Source: a virus
Lineage: Duplodnaviria > Heunggongvirae > Uroviricota > Caudoviricetes
Virus record (IMG/VR): IMGVR_UViG_2909298281_000001
Location: 1-15,778 of that record
Strand: one strand, 5' to 3'
Length of the DNA: 15,778 bases
The notes under the pieces were generated by a model. The model had not been told where the DNA came from, searched no databases, and saw only the letters and a program-made list of their open reading frames with translations. Both the position numbers and the translations under genes were made by a program. Of this stretch, positions 1,394 through 15,778 are shown piece by piece (within the stretch, counting starts at the first letter, position 1; each line of letters opens with the position of its first letter).

Positions 1394-2296
1394 ATGGAAA
1401 TATCGAAAAATAAAATTTGGGAAGCCAAAGAATGGGAATCTCATGTAAATGATTTACTCCGACTAAAATTTGGTGAAGTAAATTATATATCTATACCTGA
1501 TTTTCATAATGGGGACGCTGGAATTGAGGGATATTGTGTACAGGGATATGCTTTTCAGTCTTATTGTCCTAATGAGGCATGTACAGTTGATAAGTTGTAT
1601 GAAAAACAAAGAGACAAGATGACCGCGGATGTTGCAAAATTCATTTCAGATAAAAAGGGGTATTTAAAAGAAATTCTACAAAACACCAGAATAAAAAGAT
1701 GGATTTTGGTAGTGCCATCTCACTTATCTAAAAAATTGAATGTTCATGCAACAAAAAAAGAAAGTGAAGTTCTAGCTGCTAAATTACCTTATGTTGATAA
1801 TGATGATTTCAAGGTGCTTATTTGGGATCGAGAAAATTTCAAAAAAGAGGAAGATGAATTAATTAGCAGCGGGCTTAGATTATTGAGGATAGAACTTCCT
1901 GAAGTCGATATTAACGATATTGATAATCTAAAAGATAACAATAGCGAGTTTGGCGATAATATTTCAAGGAAGCTTAGAAAGATAAAAAATGATGAGCGTC
2001 AAGTACAGACAGCTTCAACTGTATTATTAAAAAATATAGTTATGTATAAAAACATCATGAGTGGCCTCAAAGATAACTATCCTAGTTTATATGAAAATAT
2101 AACAAATGGTATACTGGATCGTGAGCAAGATTTGTCCTTGGCTTTTTTTGATTCTGAAAATTTGACTCTGACTCAGCAAATTCAACACCTTAATGATAAG
2201 CTAAAACAGTCTAGCCGTCTTCATCAAGATAATCTAAAATGTATTTCTACCGGAGTGGTTGGTGATTGGCTAATGCGCTGTAATTTGGACTTTTAA
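1394..2296 (+). CDS. Hypothetical protein, 300 aa; first gene of hotspot cargo operon (candidate effector)
   Basis: ATG-initiated 300-aa ORF in a markedly A+T-rich segment. Stop TAA at 2294-2296 lies 2 nt before the next ATG (2299), consistent with an operon. No catalytic motif I can assign with confidence; the stretch IPDFHNGDAGIEGYCVQ could be a degenerate nuclease-like acidic motif but this is speculative. Confidence 0.6.
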   Translation: MEISKNKIWEAKEWESHVNDLLRLKFGEVNYISIPDFHNGDAGIEGYCVQGYAFQSYCPNEACTVDKLYEKQRDKMTADVAKFISDKKGYLKEILQNTRIKRWILVVPSHLSKKLNVHATKKESEVLAAKLPYVDNDDFKVLIWDRENFKKEEDELISSGLRLLRIELPEVDINDIDNLKDNNSEFGDNISRKLRKIKNDERQVQTASTVLLKNIVMYKNIMSGLKDNYPSLYENITNGILDREQDLSLAFFDSENLTLTQQIQHLNDKLKQSSRLHQDNLKCISTGVVGDWLMRCNLDF

Positions 2297-2298
2297 TC

Positions 2299-2763
2299 AT
2301 GGATATTCTAAAAGAAACGCCTGAAAAGATGACTTTTAACTCGACTGGTTCGCCTGTTGAACCCGAATTAAGACCCATCTGGAGAATATCCTTGCTTGCT
2401 ATCATTCTTAAAAAACTATGCAGAGGCTCTTCTGCGAGTTTAAAAAAAATGCAAGTTTTATATTCTTTGATTTCCTCCGCCGATAAAAGAAGTCGGTATT
2501 TCACTGAAGGAGGTAATGCGGATATAAGCATTCGGTTTGATCCTCTCTTAGATAGAGCTATTTCGTTGGGAGTGGCAGAAGGTATATTTACTTTGGATGC
2601 TGCAAAAAGCGTTGTGTTAACCAATAAGGGCACGCTCTTATCTAATAAAATTTACAAAGATTCAACATTATTCGTTTTTGAAAAGGAATTTATCGAGAAC
2701 TATAGTAAATCTGAATTTTCCGATAAAAAGATAGATCAAATATTATACAGGGGAATTATATGA
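2299..2763 (+). CDS. Hypothetical protein, 154 aa; middle gene of hotspot cargo operon
   Basis: ORF tightly packed between flanking genes; its stop TGA (2761-2763) overlaps the ATG of the next gene (2760-2762) as ATGA. AGGGGA Shine-Dalgarno-like sequence at 2748-2753 serves the downstream gene. No recognizable motif. Confidence 0.55.
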   Translation: MDILKETPEKMTFNSTGSPVEPELRPIWRISLLAIILKKLCRGSSASLKKMQVLYSLISSADKRSRYFTEGGNADISIRFDPLLDRAISLGVAEGIFTLDAAKSVVLTNKGTLLSNKIYKDSTLFVFEKEFIENYSKSEFSDKKIDQILYRGII

Positions 2764-3987
2764 GCAAACTTAAGATTGAGAGATTAATTATACGAACAAA
2801 TACTAGTGATGGAATATATGGGACAGACCTTAAATTTGGCTATGGTCTAAATATTATAAGTGCTGAGAACTCTTCTGGTAAATCCACCTGTATACAATCA
2901 ATTATTTATGCACTAGGATTGGAGGGAATATTGGGACCATCCAGAAAAAATCCCTTAAAGTCTGCTCTAACTACTAAATTACGTGATAATAATGATACTG
3001 AAATACCGGTTAATGAATCAAAAATTTATCTCCAACTTTCTAACGAACATTCAAGAAAAATAACTATTTTAAGAAAAAGTGATAGTGATATTTCAAAAAT
3101 CGTTACCGTATATGACTGTGAGTTCGATAAAATCAATCCTCACAAATTTACGGACTATTTTTTGAAAGATCCCGGTTCTGCTCAGCGTGAGAAAGGATTT
3201 CATTATTTTCTTTCGAATTTCTTAGGGATAACACAGCCCGAAGTGATTAAATATGATGGAACCAAGTGTCCACTTTATCTTGAGTCAATATTCACAGTTA
3301 ATTATGTAGAGCAAACAAGAGGTTGGGGTGGGATTCTAAATGTTATTCCTACTTACTTGGGTATTAAGGATTTATCACAAAACGTTCTTGAATATACTCT
3401 TAATTTAGATGTTCGAGAAATAAGAAAGAAACGCGAGATATTTTTAGATGAAAAGAAAAATCTTGAAACTAAATGGGCAAATACAATCTCAGAGTTAGAG
3501 TCTAATGCAAAGGCTTATGGCTTCTTTGTATCAACAAGAATACCTGATAAAATCACTACAAAATCAGATACCTATCAAGATAGTGATTTATATACATTGG
3601 ATGAAAATAATCGTGAGATTTCTTTACCACTATACAAGGCTCATAAAGAGAACGAATTAGAATATATTAGAGCACAATTAAAAAATAACGACATCCCTAA
3701 TGATGGGGTGTTAGATTCTGTTCTTGATAGTCTTCGAGTGAATTTAGCTAATCAAGAATATGCTCTTTCATTATTAATCTCTGACATAGAGTCTAATAAA
3801 CTGTATATAAGTTCAATTAATAAGAGTCTGACTGATACAAAAGAAAGTCTTAGAAAATATAGAGATATTGAAAAGCTTAAGTTATTGGGCTCGCAGGAGG
3901 ATTTTTCTTTTGTCACTGGTAGTTGCCCAACTTGTGGACAAGCCGTTGAAGATACTCTCTTACCAGCGAGCTTTGATGGAAAGACAT

Positions 3988-3996
3988 TAACGGTTG
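3988..3996. repeat. IS1 target-site duplication, left copy (TAACGGTTG)
   Basis: 9-bp TAACGGTTG immediately abuts the IS1 end and is repeated exactly at 4765-4773. Confidence 0.88.
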
Positions 3997-4011
3997 GGTA
4001 ATGACTCCAAC

Positions 4012-4515
4012 TTATTGATAGTGTTTTATGTTCAGATAATGCCCGATGACTTTGTCATGCAGCTCCACCGATTTTGAGAACGACAGCGACTTCCGTCCCA
4101 GCCGTGCCAGGTGCTGCCTCAGATTCAGGTTATGCCGCTCAATTCGCTGCGTATATCGCTTGCTGATTACGTGCAGCTTTCCCTTCAGGCGGGATTCATA
4201 CAGCGGCCAGCCATCCGTCATCCATATCACCACGTCAAAGGGTGACAGCAGGCTCATAAGACGCACCAGCGTCGCCATAGTGCGTTCACCGAATACGTGC
4301 GCAACAACCGTCTTCCGGAGCCTGTCATACGCGTAAAACAGCCAGCGCTGGCGCGATTTAGCCCCGACGTATCCCCACTGTTCGTCCATTTCTGCGCAGA
4401 CGATGACGTCACTGCCCGGCTGTATGCGCGAGGTTACCGACTGCGGCCTGAGTTTTTTAAGTGACGTAAAATCGTGTTGAGGCCAACGCCCATAATGCGG
4501 GCAGTTGCCCGGCAT
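4012..4515 (-). CDS. insB: IS1 transposase InsB reading frame, 167 aa (expressed as InsAB' fusion by -1 frameshift)
   Basis: Translation [25 protein letters not shown]...NIKHYQ matches IS1 InsB as I recall it; position and length are canonical within IS1. Confidence 0.9.
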
Positions 4516-4709
4516 CCAACGCCATTCATGGCCATATCAATGATTTTCTGGTGCGTACCGGGTTGAGAAGCGGTGTAAGTGAACTGCAGTTGCCATGTTT
4601 TACGGCAGTGAGAGCAGAGATAGCGCTGATGTCCGGCGGTGCTTTTGCCGTTACGCACCACCCCGTCAGTAGCTGAACAGGAGGGACAGCTGATAGAAAC
4701 AGAAGCCAC
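4434..4709 (-). CDS. insA: IS1 InsA transposition repressor, 91 aa
   Basis: Translation [43 protein letters not shown]... with zinc-finger CxxC..CxxC and HTH region; canonical IS1 InsA length. Confidence 0.93.
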
Positions 4710-4764
4710 TGGAGCACCTCAAAAACACCATCATACACTAAATCAGTAAGTTGGCAGCATCACC

Positions 4765-4773
4765 TAACGGTTG
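4765..4773. repeat. IS1 target-site duplication, right copy (TAACGGTTG)
   Basis: Exact repeat of 3988-3996 immediately after the IS1 terminal repeat. Confidence 0.88.
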
Positions 4774-5582
4774 AAGATAATATAAAGTATCTAGAAAAAA
4801 CCTATGCAGTATTTGATAGCTTGGCAAAAAGTGAAAAAATAAAATTTGAAAGAAAAGAAGCTGCATTAAAAGTAGCTAATGCTAAAGTTCGAGACTTGCG
4901 TAATCAGATCAAAGAAGTTCAGCGTAGCATATCATCTCCTATAAACTCCGAGCTTAGAGAACTCATAAGAAAGGAAGTTAAACTGGAAAAGGATATCGAC
5001 ATTTTAAACTCACTGGAGGAATTCGAAATTAGTAAAAAAGATACACTTATGGCTGTTCTTTCTGATTGGTATGATTGTAATAATCAACTAACAGTACTTC
5101 CGTATGATGGTTTTAGCAAAGCAGATATATTAAAGTTGAGGTTATTACGTGATTCATTTAAATCAAACTTGGAGGATTTTGGTTATAAAAGTACACCAAT
5201 TGAAGAGTTTGATTTATCGAGAAATACATACAAACCAACTGTCGATGGTATAGATATCGGCTCTGAAGCATCCGCCAGTGATAACATTAGGGTGATTTGG
5301 TCATATTTGTATTCATTGTTGATGTTAGATTCCAGTGCAAGAGATATCTCAACTAATCATTTGGGACTGTTGATTATGGATGAACCAAGACAGCAAGAAA
5401 CTAAAGATGCTAGTTTTAGAACACTAATTAAGAAAGCATCTGAGTCGTATATTCAAGAAAAACAGATTATTATGGGTACTAGTGAAAAATTTACTGATTT
5501 AATTGCCATGCTGGATGGTTTGCATGTGAATCTTTTGCATTTCGATAGTAATATTATCCGTAAACAGTAAATCCCTCAATGT

Positions 5583-5994: not shown

Positions 5995-6567
5995 TTACAC
6001 AGACTGATGTGATGCCAGTTGCGCACTTTTACGCGAAAAAATCATGTTCTGCGCAGGGGTGAATTTTTCACGGCTGTCATCCACCGAAGCCGCGTCAGGC
6101 CTGAATCCGATGGTCGTTAAAATGTCGCTATCCTGTGCGGAATAATTAATTTTTTCACCCTTCGCAAGCCAGGACAGGAGGGCTTCACGCAGGGCATCTG
6201 TGGCACGCTGTATGGCACAGTTTCGGGCAATGACCGTCAGTTCACTGTAGCCCATCAGCTCCGGTGCCAGTGCGGCCGCCAGTACTGTGCCGTGCTGCTG
6301 CATAAAATCATTCAGCCGGTCGCGGATGCTGATGTGCTGAACGGCTTCATGCGAACGAATATAACGACCGGCGGCCTGATTCACCTGCCATTTTCTGACT
6401 TCGATAATATTGCGTAATTCGTCCAGGCGACTGACGTTTCTGCCTTCTCCTGACAGAAGCCGCAGGTATTCCTGTTCGGCCGCTGCCAGCTCATTTTTGC
6501 GTTGCAGCCATGCTGCTTTGTTATTCTGATAGGTGTCAAAGGCCTGCTGTAAGGCTGTGCTTTCCAT
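5995..6567 (-). CDS. psu: Psu polarity-suppression protein (capsid decoration / Rho antagonist), 190 aa
   Basis: 190-aa ORF beginning MESTALQQAFDTYQNNKAAWLQRKNELAAAEQEY... Length and sequence character match P4 Psu as I recall it, and it is the last gene of a sid-delta-psu order. Confidence 0.9.
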   Translation of the reverse strand: MESTALQQAFDTYQNNKAAWLQRKNELAAAEQEYLRLLSGEGRNVSRLDELRNIIEVRKWQVNQAAGRYIRSHEAVQHISIRDRLNDFMQQHGTVLAAALAPELMGYSELTVIARNCAIQRATDALREALLSWLAKGEKINYSAQDSDILTTIGFRPDAASVDDSREKFTPAQNMIFSRKSAQLASHQSV

Positions 6568-6640: not shown

Positions 6641-7141
6641 TCATTCCAGACGCAGCGAATATGATTGTGTTTTTAACCGTACTGGCGGCAGTTCCTGTTT
6701 TTCATGCAGGCGTTCTGCCAGTTCGTCCGGTGTGACCGGGCGGACAATGAAGCGGTTGATGGTCTGAAGCGTTTTAAACACCAGACCACAGCCCGGATCC
6801 GTGCACACATAAAAACGCTCGGTGACTTCCTGAGAGAGACGCCGCGATGTTCTTGACAGTGCAAGGCCTTTACATCTCCGACAACAATATCCGGTAACAA
6901 GCATTCTTTTCGGGCGTTTCATACTGCCGGAGGCTGACGTCAGTGAATCGCGGTATCTCTGTTTGCCTGAAATGTATTCCATTCCTGAATCTTTACTGTC
7001 AGAGAAAAAGCTTTCACTCGCTTCAAATGTCGCAGAGCAATAAATATTCCGGCACTGTGCAATCATTATCTTGGTGCCATCGTCCATGAAATGTGCGCGG
7101 CGGGTGTGAGCAACATGTCCACACGACGGGCAGTAAATCAT
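6641..7141 (-). CDS. delta: Delta late-gene transcriptional activator (tandem Ogr-like zinc-finger protein), 166 aa
   Basis: Two Ogr-type cysteine clusters (CPSCGH...CRNIYC and CRRC...CTDPGC) in a 166-aa protein, the P4 Delta length as I recall. ATGA overlap with the sid stop (7138-7141). Confidence 0.9.
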   Translation of the reverse strand: MIYCPSCGHVAHTRRAHFMDDGTKIMIAQCRNIYCSATFEASESFFSDSKDSGMEYISGKQRYRDSLTSASGSMKRPKRMLVTGYCCRRCKGLALSRTSRRLSQEVTERFYVCTDPGCGLVFKTLQTINRFIVRPVTPDELAERLHEKQELPPVRLKTQSYSLRLE

Positions 7142-14139: not shown

Positions 14140-14790
14140 ATGAATAAACTCCCTGATCATCTTCCGCGGCGGTATATCATCGAAGCTATCCATTTATGGG
14201 ATGCGGGAGAAACTCATCAGTTCCAGCCTGCGCGGTTGTATGAGATTGAATATCATGGCCGACGTTACCCCTCGAAGGCGATTGCTGGCATCGCAGCGAC
14301 ATTGATGACGGGGACGCAATTTACCCCTGCGGATTTCACCGGCGGAATAAAATCTAAATGTGTCAAGCTACTCATAGAGCAGGGATTTCATATTCATCTG
14401 GATAAAGCCGCTGCGGCTCCCATAGCCGACGTTCTGTTCCCGGATGAGTTGCCGTCGCAGGAGACATACCTTGAAGGTGCGGCGATAAAGGTGACAGTAA
14501 ACCGCTATGAACGCGATAAAAAGGCCCGAGATAAAGCGGTCGAACATCATGGATGCCAGTGCAACGTATGCGGTGTTGATCTGGTGAAGATCTATGGTGA
14601 TATCGCTGAAGGCTTTATCCATGTGCATCACCTGGTGCCGCTGTCAGCCATTAAAGAGGATTACCAGCTGGATCCAGTTAATGATTTGCTGCCTGTGTAC
14701 CCTAATTGCCATGCGATGTTGCACCGACGCAAACCACCGTTTACGCCGGAGCAGTTAAAAGCGCTGATGGATGCGAATAAATCAAATTAA
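14140..14790 (+). CDS. HNH endonuclease-domain protein, 216 aa, with an uncharacterized N-terminal domain
   Basis: C-terminal HNH-type motif CQCNVCGV...HVHHLVPLS...N...YPNCHAMLH (two Cys pairs plus His-His and Asn). The N-terminal 130 aa has no motif I can assign. Confidence 0.75.
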   Translation: MNKLPDHLPRRYIIEAIHLWDAGETHQFQPARLYEIEYHGRRYPSKAIAGIAATLMTGTQFTPADFTGGIKSKCVKLLIEQGFHIHLDKAAAAPIADVLFPDELPSQETYLEGAAIKVTVNRYERDKKARDKAVEHHGCQCNVCGVDLVKIYGDIAEGFIHVHHLVPLSAIKEDYQLDPVNDLLPVYPNCHAMLHRRKPPFTPEQLKALMDANKSN

Positions 14791-14797
14791 TGAACGC

Positions 14798-15778
14798 TCA
14801 CCTTTCGCGCCAAAACTGCAAAATTGCTTCTACAAACTTGTCAGAAATAATCCCCCGACGGGCTGCCGTGCTGAAATGACTGCTTCGCAGTGCCGTCGTC
14901 CAGTTCTCCGGTGACCGGTACGCTGAACCGTAATATCCCGTGCTTAAATCGTCCGGGTCTTCATCAGGCGCGTTCGTCAGTCCTCTTTCACCTTGTTGCT
15001 GGAAGTCGACGAAAATAATATTGGCTAAAACATTATTTTGATAATTGCCATAAATAACTTCATACGCATGAGGGAAATTTTCTTTCCAGTACCAGGTGGT
15101 ATCGCCGCAAAACCACGGTGCGTCAGTAATATTATTAAGCTGAGAATGGTATTGTTTTAGATCCCTACGAAAGGCTTCAACCATATGATTAAAGTGTTGA
15201 GGGTGTGACGCGTAGTCACTGGTCATTAAGTCAAATTCGCCTTGCATCCAGCATACGCCGAGGAATTTGTTATGCGGATTTTTTGCCAGTGCTGCTCGCG
15301 TTCTGCTGACTAAATCCTGGTATAGCGGAGTATCCGTTCCCCAACGACAAGCATCATGGCTGGCTCCGTGCCGTTCTGAATATGTCCCTTCGCTGCCCGC
15401 GGTAAAAGCCGATCCGCCACGGCAACACGGAACGATGAGAACCCCTGCATTATCAGGAATAAAGGGCAGTAATTTCCGTGCTATATGCAGTGCCTGGCCA
15501 ACGGTGCCGTACTGTGTTTGATGATTCGTTGCCAGAGGATGGTGATAACCCTGCATATCCTGAACATCGTGTGGGCAGTGAGTCAGTGGAATCATGTCGT
15601 TAAAGTGACATGGCGGGCCTCCGGGATGCGTATGCGCAAATCTCGCTAATTGTTTGATTCTGGGATGAGGCGCATCTTCCCTGTCCGGTAATGGCAGTCC
15701 TTCGCCATACGCCATGGCATTAGACTGACCAGCAATGGTAAGAATATAGTAATAATCGGGCGATATTATTGCGTTCAT
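14798..15778 (-). CDS. nanS: Sialate O-acetylesterase (NanS/YjhS-like, SGNH-type esterase), 326 aa
   Basis: Complete minus-strand ORF whose ATG is the last codon of the window. N-terminal MNAIISPDYYYILTIAGQSNAMAYG with the GQSN catalytic-serine motif; 326 aa matches E. coli NanS as I recall. Confidence 0.8.
   Translation of the reverse strand: MNAIISPDYYYILTIAGQSNAMAYGEGLPLPDREDAPHPRIKQLARFAHTHPGGPPCHFNDMIPLTHCPHDVQDMQGYHHPLATNHQTQYGTVGQALHIARKLLPFIPDNAGVLIVPCCRGGSAFTAGSEGTYSERHGASHDACRWGTDTPLYQDLVSRTRAALAKNPHNKFLGVCWMQGEFDLMTSDYASHPQHFNHMVEAFRRDLKQYHSQLNNITDAPWFCGDTTWYWKENFPHAYEVIYGNYQNNVLANIIFVDFQQQGERGLTNAPDEDPDDLSTGYYGSAYRSPENWTTALRSSHFSTAARRGIISDKFVEAILQFWRER

What the first reader, a model, noticed from the sequence alone, without database searches (positions are those of the whole stretch)
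3924..3935. CxxC motif (CPTC) in the middle of the ATPase, reminiscent of a Rad50-type zinc hook
A single CPTCGQ lies between the Walker A head region and the Walker B region, flanked by sequence with coiled-coil character (regular spacing of charged and hydrophobic residues). Rad50/SbcC dimerize through a CxxC zinc hook at the coiled-coil apex. A hook-like motif in a defence-type SMC ATPase would suggest zinc-mediated dimerization. The IS1 insertion lies only about 20 codons downstream of it.
Basis: inference. Interest (0 to 1): 0.45.

Follow-up and report, generated by a model that had tools for sequence, protein, structure and literature searches.

The report
Zinc hook of a Lamassu LmuB
The CPTC motif is real and is almost certainly the zinc-hook dimerisation motif of LmuB, the Rad50-like sensor ATPase of a three-gene Lamassu anti-phage system carried by a P4-like satellite; this feature of LmuB is already described in the literature, and the gene here is broken by an IS1 insertion.

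Summary
TGC CCA ACT TGT (3924-3935) encodes C389-P-T-C392 of an ORF starting at 2760. A 768-bp IS1 (3997-4764, 9-bp target duplication) cuts that ORF 20 codons downstream.

With the IS1 removed, the protein is 677 aa and differs at 3 residues from an intact E. coli copy. PADLOC models identify it as LmuB (E 4e-99). The two upstream genes are LmuA (E 2e-31) and LmuC (E 8e-27). Together they form a type II Lamassu system in the int-psu hotspot of a P4-like satellite.

C389, P390 and C392 are invariant in 114 homologues down to about 29% identity, and each of the 15 sequences sampled has a single CxxC. In an AlphaFold model the motif lies in the loop between two long heptad-periodic helices (317-375 and 412-464). 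The best structural matches are solved LmuB chains, followed by Rad50.

It is not new, however. LmuB zinc hooks (CPxCG) have been described since 2020-2023, seen in cryo-EM structures in 2025, and shown to be required for defence in a Salmonella system. Zinc binding was not tested here.

The feature is ordinary and of low interest. The IS1-inactivated defence gene in a P4 hotspot is a minor curiosity.

The parts
1394..2296 (+). lmuA: 300-aa effector with an N-terminal PD-(D/E)xK nuclease-fold domain and a helical C-terminal domain
2299..2763 (+). lmuC: 154-aa middle component
   Evidence: PADLOC LmuC PDLC03871, E 8.4e-27. No Pfam or NCBIfam match.
2760..3996 (+). lmuB, 5' part (codons 1-412 plus 1 nt): the N-terminal half of the ABC head, the ascending coiled-coil arm and the hook. 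As it stands, the ORF reads into IS1 and stops at 4001.
   Evidence: PADLOC LmuB PDLC03863, E 3.9e-99, on the intact homologue.
2862..2888 (+). Walker A (AENSSGKST, residues 35-43)
   Evidence: A35, N37, G40 and K41 are invariant.
3708..3884 (+). Ascending coiled-coil helix next to the hook (residues 317-375)
   Evidence: AF2 DSSP. Heptad periodicity p about 0.02.
3885..3992 (+). Apex (hook) loop, residues 376-411. It contains the conserved G377-S378, CPTC, D398 and L400.
   Evidence: Non-helical in the AF2 model, pLDDT about 50-54. Conservation.
3924..3935 (+). CPTC, the CxxC zinc-hook motif (C389, P390, T391, C392)
   Evidence: Invariant C-P-x-C in 114 of 114 homologues.
3997..4764 (-). IS1 element, 768 bp, with insA/insB on the minus strand. 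It is flanked by the 9-bp target-site duplication TAACGGTTG at 3988-3996 and 4765-4773.
   Evidence: inverted repeats and duplication. Pfam DDE_Tnp_IS1 E 1e-77, and the InsA domains Zn_ribbon_InsA and HTH_Tnp_IS1.
4774..5570 (+). lmuB, 3' part (rest of codon 413 to the stop): the descending coiled-coil arm and the C-terminal half of the ABC head. The listed ORF 4821-5570 begins at a TTG that is internal codon L429.
   Evidence: The repaired protein differs at 3 of 677 residues from WP_097453322.1.
4776..4928 (+). Descending coiled-coil helix next to the hook (residues 414-464; the helix starts at 412, on the other side of IS1)
   Evidence: AF2 DSSP. Heptad periodicity p about 0.006.
5367..5384 (+). 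Walker B (LLIMDE, residues 611-616), with the canonical catalytic Glu
   Evidence: D615, E616 and P617 are invariant.

Best explanation
The CPTC at residues 389-392 is the zinc hook of LmuB, the Rad50/SbcC-like coiled-coil ABC ATPase of a three-gene (type II, 'ABC-3C') Lamassu anti-phage system, lmuA-lmuC-lmuB. The system occupies the int-psu defence hotspot of a P4-like satellite. Shown here: the motif lies at the turn of a roughly 115-120-residue antiparallel coiled-coil arm that projects from the ATPase head, and it is invariant in the clade. Inferred by homology with Rad50 and with solved LmuB complexes: each protomer contributes only two cysteines, so two LmuB hooks would together coordinate one Zn2+ and hold the LmuB dimer together at the end far from the heads. 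In characterised Lamassu systems the hook-proximal coiled coil also cradles LmuC and the C-terminal domain of LmuA, keeping the effector monomeric and inactive. When the LmuB/LmuC head region senses a DNA end, with ATP-dependent head engagement, LmuA is released and oligomerises into an active nuclease that aborts infection. The effector here is a PD-(D/E)xK (FokI/Mrr-like) nuclease. In this window the system is almost certainly dead: IS1 splits lmuB 20 codons after the hook, separating the two halves of the ATPase head.
For: - Motif and reading frame.
- LmuB, LmuA and LmuC identities: PADLOC E 3.9e-99, 1.7e-31 and 8.4e-27.
- Conservation: C389, P390 and C392 invariant in 114 sequences down to 28-30% identity, and a single CxxC in each of the 15 sequences sampled.
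- AF2 model (pLDDT 83): helix 317-375, loop 376-411, helix 412-464, with matched helix breaks at 309-316 and 465-470.
- Heptad periodicity of the flanking helices and coiled-coil rod hits on both arms.
- Foldseek top hits are solved LmuB chains (9hqu_A E 2.4e-14, 9hqx_B, 9uxh_F, 9ux7_A), then Rad50.
- Weak, sub-threshold NCBIfam Rad50 matches cover residues 384-467, the hook region.
- LmuA has a nuclease fold and resembles solved LmuA.
- Literature: the LmuB hook is 'CPxCG or similar' (PMC10586767). The hook is required for defence, and LmuA and LmuC sit next to it (bioRxiv 10.1101/2025.03.14.643221). A canonical Zn hook, 285-CQYC-288, lies at the distal end of Bacillus LmuB (bioRxiv 10.1101/2025.06.23.660979). 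Short LmuB proteins carry 0, 1 or 2 CxxC motifs (PMC12663957).
Against: - Zinc binding and hook-mediated dimerisation were not measured, and no multimer model could be run.
- The hook loop has low model confidence (pLDDT about 50-54). It is 36 residues long, longer than the tight Rad50 hook.
- Even in the published cryo-EM maps the Zn atom was not resolved.
- Some functional Lamassu systems, such as V. cholerae DdmABC, have no hook at all, so a hook is not essential to the family's mechanism.
- Sequence identity to solved LmuB chains is only 13-16%.
Confidence: 0.85

Rival explanations
1. The conserved apex module is mainly a docking surface for LmuC and the LmuA C-terminal domain. The CxxC would serve a structural role within one protomer or at the LmuB-LmuA/C interface, and LmuB would dimerise through coiled-coil contacts rather than through an inter-protomer zinc bridge.
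For: The conserved stretch extends well beyond CxxC: G377, S378, D398, L400, N415 and I416 are at least 90% conserved or close to it. In the SalEnt structure LmuA and LmuC contact the hook-proximal coils. Hook-less LmuB proteins still dimerise.
Against: Two cysteines cannot complete a tetrahedral Zn site alone, and no third or fourth conserved Cys or His lies nearby: position 393 is His in only 43 of 114 sequences. In solved LmuB dimers the two hooks are juxtaposed. This reading is also compatible with the main explanation and does not exclude it.
Confidence: 0.1
2. CPTC is a redox-active dithiol/disulfide motif, like the CPYC of glutaredoxin or the CPHC of DsbA, and acts as a redox switch.
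For: The C-P-x-C spelling resembles thiol-disulfide oxidoreductase active sites (from my own knowledge).
Against: There is no thioredoxin fold: the motif lies in a loop between two long helices. The structural neighbours are LmuB and Rad50. The protein is cytoplasmic. C-P-x-C-G is also the classical Rad50/SbcC hook spelling.
Confidence: 0.03
3. The CxxC occurs by chance and has no function.
For: Composition alone gives a 4.4% chance of a CxxC somewhere in a 677-aa protein with 6 Cys.
Against: The motif is invariant in 114 of 114 homologues at the same alignment column, in an alignment whose mean column identity is 47%. The chance of it falling in the apex loop is 0.2%.
Confidence: 0.01

Closest known systems
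LmuB of Lamassu (type II / ABC-3C systems), e.g. Salmonella enterica LmuACB (PDB 9hqu, 9hqx)
   Same: Same three-gene composition (LmuA nuclease effector, small LmuC, SMC-like LmuB). Similar size (677 vs about 630 aa). Short coiled coil with interruptions (folding points). One CxxC hook at the apex. It is the best structural match. The hook is needed for defence in SalEnt.
   Different: Only 13-14% sequence identity to the solved chains. Walker B is the canonical hhhhDE, invariant in this clade, whereas the studied LmuB proteins have a deviant D-Q. LmuA is shorter (300 aa) and has a FokI/Mrr-like rather than a Cap4-type PD-(D/E)xK domain. The gene here is interrupted by IS1.
Rad50 / SbcC zinc hook
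   Same: An ABC head split by an antiparallel coiled coil, with a C-P-x-C-G motif at its apex. Weak sequence similarity over the hook region. Structural matches to Rad50 chains at E 1e-10 to 1e-6. Lamassu is proposed to derive from SbcCD (PMC12663957).
   Different: The coiled coil is much shorter (about 115-120 residues per arm). There is no Mre11/SbcD partner; the neighbours are LmuA and LmuC. The role is immune sensing rather than DNA repair. The apex loop is longer.
Vibrio cholerae DdmABC (Lamassu Vc-Cap4) LmuB
   Same: A short type II Lamassu. It appears among the structural matches (9uxh_F).
   Different: That LmuB has lost the zinc hook; the present clade keeps it invariantly.
Domainator 'Lamassu-var' of E. 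coli satellites (CP038295)
   Same: A Lamassu-related system in an int-psu type satellite hotspot of E. coli.
   Different: No significant sequence similarity beyond the P-loop. It is carried by satellites whose Psu is only about 31% identical to P4 Psu.

Membership tests
Lamassu LmuB (SMC/Rad50-like sensor of Lamassu) | Sequence match to LmuB family models | tested here: met
   PADLOC PDLC03863 LmuB, E 3.9e-99, residues 4-671 against profile positions 3-597 of 610. Another 15 LmuB models also match.
Lamassu LmuB (SMC/Rad50-like sensor of Lamassu) | Operon partner LmuA (effector N-terminal domain plus ABC-3C C-terminal domain) | tested here: met
   [not shown]
Lamassu LmuB (SMC/Rad50-like sensor of Lamassu) | Operon partner LmuC (type II systems) | tested here: met
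   The ORF 2299-2763 matches PADLOC LmuC at E 8.4e-27.
Lamassu LmuB (SMC/Rad50-like sensor of Lamassu) | ABC head with Walker A and Walker B, split by a short coiled coil; fold like solved LmuB | tested here: met
   Walker A and Walker B are invariant. AF2 architecture. Foldseek top hits 9hqu_A, 9hqx_B, 9uxh_F and 9ux7_A.
Lamassu LmuB (SMC/Rad50-like sensor of Lamassu) | Anti-phage or anti-plasmid activity | not testable with these tools
The copy in the window is disrupted by IS1.
Rad50/SbcC-type zinc hook | Conserved CxxC (typically C-P-x-C-G) | tested here: met
   The motif here is CPTCG. C, P and C are invariant in 114 of 114 homologues.
Rad50/SbcC-type zinc hook | Located at the apex of an antiparallel intramolecular coiled coil, between the two halves of the ABC head | tested here: met
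   The loop 376-411 lies between helices 317-375 and 412-464, and the arms are of matched length. Heptad periodicity. Helix packing itself was not measured because no coordinates were available.
Rad50/SbcC-type zinc hook | Zn2+ coordinated by four Cys from two protomers, giving dimerisation | not testable with these tools
   No multimer prediction or metal analysis is available. The Zn atom is not resolved in the published LmuB maps either.
Rad50/SbcC proper (Mre11-Rad50 / SbcCD repair complex) | Partner Mre11/SbcD phosphoesterase nuclease encoded alongside | tested here: not met
   The neighbours are LmuA and LmuC, with no SbcD/Mre11 match. Rad50 NCBIfam scores of 17-18 bits are far below the cut-offs of 1000 bits or more.

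The most novel reading that the evidence does not exclude
In this LmuB clade, the whole 36-residue, highly conserved apex module (G-S-x-E-x-F ... C-P-T-C-x-Q ... D-S-L-L-P ... D-N-I-K-Y-L-E) would do more than dimerise LmuB through zinc. It would form a composite platform that binds LmuC and the LmuA C-terminal domain. Together with the fully canonical Walker B (DE), this would make hook integrity and real ATP turnover jointly gate release of a FokI/Mrr-like nuclease, which would be a variant of the published sequestration-release mechanism.
Probability: 0.25. Interest if true: 0.3.

Novelty: already known. Interest (0 to 1): 0.12.

Why it matters
It matters mainly for annotation. Three genes deposited as 'hypothetical protein' form a Lamassu system, and the CxxC is its expected zinc hook. 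The clade is of modest use for comparison because it combines an invariant hook with a canonical Walker B glutamate, unlike the experimentally studied LmuB proteins. The IS1-split copy is also an example of a pseudogenised defence gene in a P4 hotspot, which a 2026 survey reports to be rare. None of this changes current understanding of Lamassu or Rad50 hooks.

Tried and rejected
- Pfam and NCBIfam gave only sub-threshold SMC_N and Rad50 hits for LmuB and nothing for LmuA or LmuC. PADLOC was needed for identification.
- phmmer of LmuB against PDB sequences found nothing relevant. A family profile found only Rad50/SMC P-loop regions and generic coiled-coil rods, not the hook. A residue-level alignment of this hook to an experimentally validated LmuB hook was therefore not possible.
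The 92%-identical, equal-length P0001 was modelled instead.
- I tested whether the system equals the experimentally validated 'Lamassu-var' of the Domainator paper. It does not.
- I considered and rejected three readings: chance occurrence, a redox CxxC, and an intramolecular four-Cys zinc ribbon (only two conserved Cys lie in the region).

Full report
**Observation**

Window 3924-3935 reads TGC CCA ACT TGT, which translates to C-P-T-C, followed by G-Q. These are codons 389-392 of the ORF that starts at 2760. The ORF does not end naturally. It runs into a 768-bp IS1 element (3997-4764) and stops at 4001.

The IS1 has the expected terminal inverted repeats, insA/insB on the minus strand, and a perfect 9-bp target duplication, TAACGGTTG, at 3988-3996 and 4765-4773. 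Removing IS1 and one copy of the duplication restores a 677-aa reading frame that ends at 5570. That protein differs at only 3 residues from an intact protein (WP_097453322.1) in E. coli 2013C-4974.

CPTC is the only CxxC in the protein, which has 6 Cys. It sits between Walker A (residues 35-43) and Walker B (611-616). By composition alone, a CxxC anywhere has about a 4.4% chance, and one within the apex loop about 0.2%.

**What the gene is**

Pfam and NCBIfam give only sub-threshold SMC_N and Rad50 hits. PADLOC models are decisive:
- The 677-aa protein is LmuB (PDLC03863, E 3.9e-99, nearly end to end).
- The 300-aa ORF 1394-2296 is LmuA (E 1.7e-31).
- The 154-aa ORF 2299-2763 is LmuC (E 8.4e-27).

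The three genes lie between a tyrosine integrase (1-1260) and psu (5995-6567, minus strand). They are followed by delta, a 250-aa ORF at the sid position (no Pfam match), alpA, ash-family and derepression-protein genes, and a 777-aa primase-helicase that corresponds to the P4 alpha protein. This is the known variable defence hotspot of P4-like satellites (PMC9122126, listed). The locus is therefore a type II (three-gene, 'ABC-3C') Lamassu system.

**Test 1: conservation**

A search of the large protein collection returned 179 homologues. I aligned 113 full-length ones, from 92% down to about 28-30% identity, with the repaired protein. Only 33 columns are invariant. They include C389, P390 and C392, and T391 is kept in 107 of 114 sequences. 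Each of the 15 sequences sampled has exactly one CxxC, in the same column.

Conservation extends around the motif: G377 and S378 are at least 90% conserved; D398 occurs in 96 of 114, L400 in 105 of 114, and N415 and I416 are at least 90% conserved. Walker B is invariantly hhhhD-E.

**Test 2: location**

I modelled P0001 with AlphaFold2. It is 92% identical to the repaired protein and has the same length and numbering. The model has mean pLDDT 83 and pTM 0.73.

The ABC head is formed by the N- and C-terminal parts. The ascending arm consists of helices 218-252, 289-308 and 317-375, and the descending arm of helices 412-464, 471-520 and 528-547. That gives 114 and 123 helical residues, so the arms are of matched length. 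The helix interruptions are also matched (309-316 and 465-470), which resembles the 'folding points' described for Salmonella LmuB.

CPTC lies in the 36-residue non-helical stretch 376-411 that joins the two apex-proximal helices. Confidence in that stretch is low (pLDDT about 50-54), as expected for a monomer modelled without its partner and without zinc.

Both flanking helices show 3.5-residue hydrophobic periodicity above shuffled controls (p about 0.02 and 0.006), with 71-73% hydrophobic a/d positions in the best register. A family profile also picks up lamin and keratin rod segments on exactly these arms. I could not read the model coordinates, so helix-helix packing is inferred rather than measured.

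**Test 3: structural neighbours**

Foldseek against the PDB ranks solved Lamassu LmuB chains first:
- Salmonella LmuACB 9hqu_A (E 2.4e-14) and 9hqx_B.
- 9a6c_A, an integrative model titled YYDD-YYDB (protein identity not checked).
- Type II LmuACB 9uxh_F and type I LmuAB 9ux7_A.

Rad50 chains follow (7zr1, E 2e-10 and weaker), and then other SMC proteins. Sub-threshold NCBIfam Rad50 matches fall on residues 384-467, the hook region.

**The effector**

The invariant residues G40, D41, G43, Q55 and K75 resemble, from my own knowledge, the Mrr-type 'GDxGIDG...QxK' pattern. I did not test this against an Mrr profile.

**Comparison with what is known**

The LmuB zinc hook is an established feature:
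- The Salmonella LmuACB study shows the two hooks juxtaposed at the end of folded coiled coils, with LmuC and the LmuA C-terminal domain beside them. It reports that defence requires the LmuB zinc hook (bioRxiv 10.1101/2025.03.14.643221).
- The Bacillus LmuAB structure has a 'canonical Zn-hook motif (285CQYC288)' at the end far from the heads (bioRxiv 10.1101/2025.06.23.660979).
- A phylogenomic and structural study finds 0, 1 or 2 CxxC copies in short LmuB proteins and derives Lamassu from SbcCD (PMC12663957).

In none of the maps was the Zn atom itself resolved. The V. cholerae system works without a hook.

**Mechanism (steps 2 and 3 are inferred by homology)**

1. Two LmuB protomers pair along their coiled coils.
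2. The two CPTC motifs jointly bind one Zn2+, which closes the dimer at the apex.
3. The apex-proximal region holds LmuC and the LmuA C-terminal domain. This keeps the nuclease monomeric until DNA-end sensing and ATP-driven head engagement release it to oligomerise and cleave DNA.

A FokI-like domain that must pair to cut duplex DNA would fit activation by oligomerisation. That point is my inference.

In this window the system is very probably inactive. IS1 separates the Walker A half of the head, the ascending arm and the hook (a 413-aa product) from the descending arm and the Walker B half. The downstream part has only an internal TTG (codon 429) as a possible start.

**Differences from the studied systems**

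- Sequence identity to the solved LmuB chains is 13-16%.
- Walker B has the canonical Glu, invariant in the clade, whereas the studied LmuB proteins have a deviant Walker B.
- The apex loop is long and conserved.
- LmuA is short and has a non-Cap4 nuclease domain.
- The system is rare: intact copies occur in 2 of 5,426 complete E. coli genomes.
- It is unrelated in sequence to the 'Lamassu-var' validated in the Domainator paper.

**Verdict**

The feature is the already-described zinc hook of a recognisable Lamassu LmuB, so novelty and interest are low. Direct zinc binding, dimerisation and anti-phage activity of this clade remain untested.

Noticed in passing
window 3988-4773: IS1 (768 bp, perfect 9-bp duplication TAACGGTTG) splits lmuB inside the defence hotspot of a P4-like satellite. 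A 2026 survey reports that defence pseudogenes are rare in P4 hotspots (under 1% of P4 pseudogenes; PMC13586616), so this is an uncommon case of a defence system inactivated rather than swapped. The exact duplication suggests a recent insertion.
   Followed up: partly
[not shown]
   Followed up: partly
window 5367-5384 (LmuB Walker B): Walker B is hhhhD-E-P, with D615, E616 and P617 invariant in all 114 homologues. The experimentally studied LmuB proteins have a deviant Walker B (Glu replaced by Gln). This clade may therefore be a faster ATPase.
   Followed up: partly
window 3516-3623 (LmuB residues 253-288): A roughly 36-residue, partly beta-stranded insertion interrupts the ascending coiled-coil arm in the AF2 model (strands 277-280 and 286-288). 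Its role is unknown.
   Followed up: no
window 6641-7141 (-) versus L001 6804-7049: The delta gene here encodes 166 aa with two Ogr/Delta zinc-finger stretches, whereas the otherwise near-identical satellite in E. coli 2013C-4974 has an 81-aa ogr/delta gene. The two elements differ in this segment, which accounts for part of the 85% coverage.
   Followed up: no
window 14140-15778: Beyond the primase there is a 216-aa ORF with a weak HNH match (E 0.003, below the Pfam cut-off). There is also a minus-strand SASA-family (sialate O-acetylesterase-like) ORF whose listed span ends at the last base of the window, so its true start may lie beyond it. These may be further cargo or flanking chromosome.
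   Followed up: no
window 1394-5570; L001: The intact lmuACB operon is rare, found in 2 of 5,426 complete E. coli genomes. However, an identical LmuA protein is recorded on 91 contigs and a 183-aa truncated form on 281 contigs. This suggests that degraded copies are more common than intact ones. The window matches GCA_002741275.1 (CP024252.1).
   Followed up: partly
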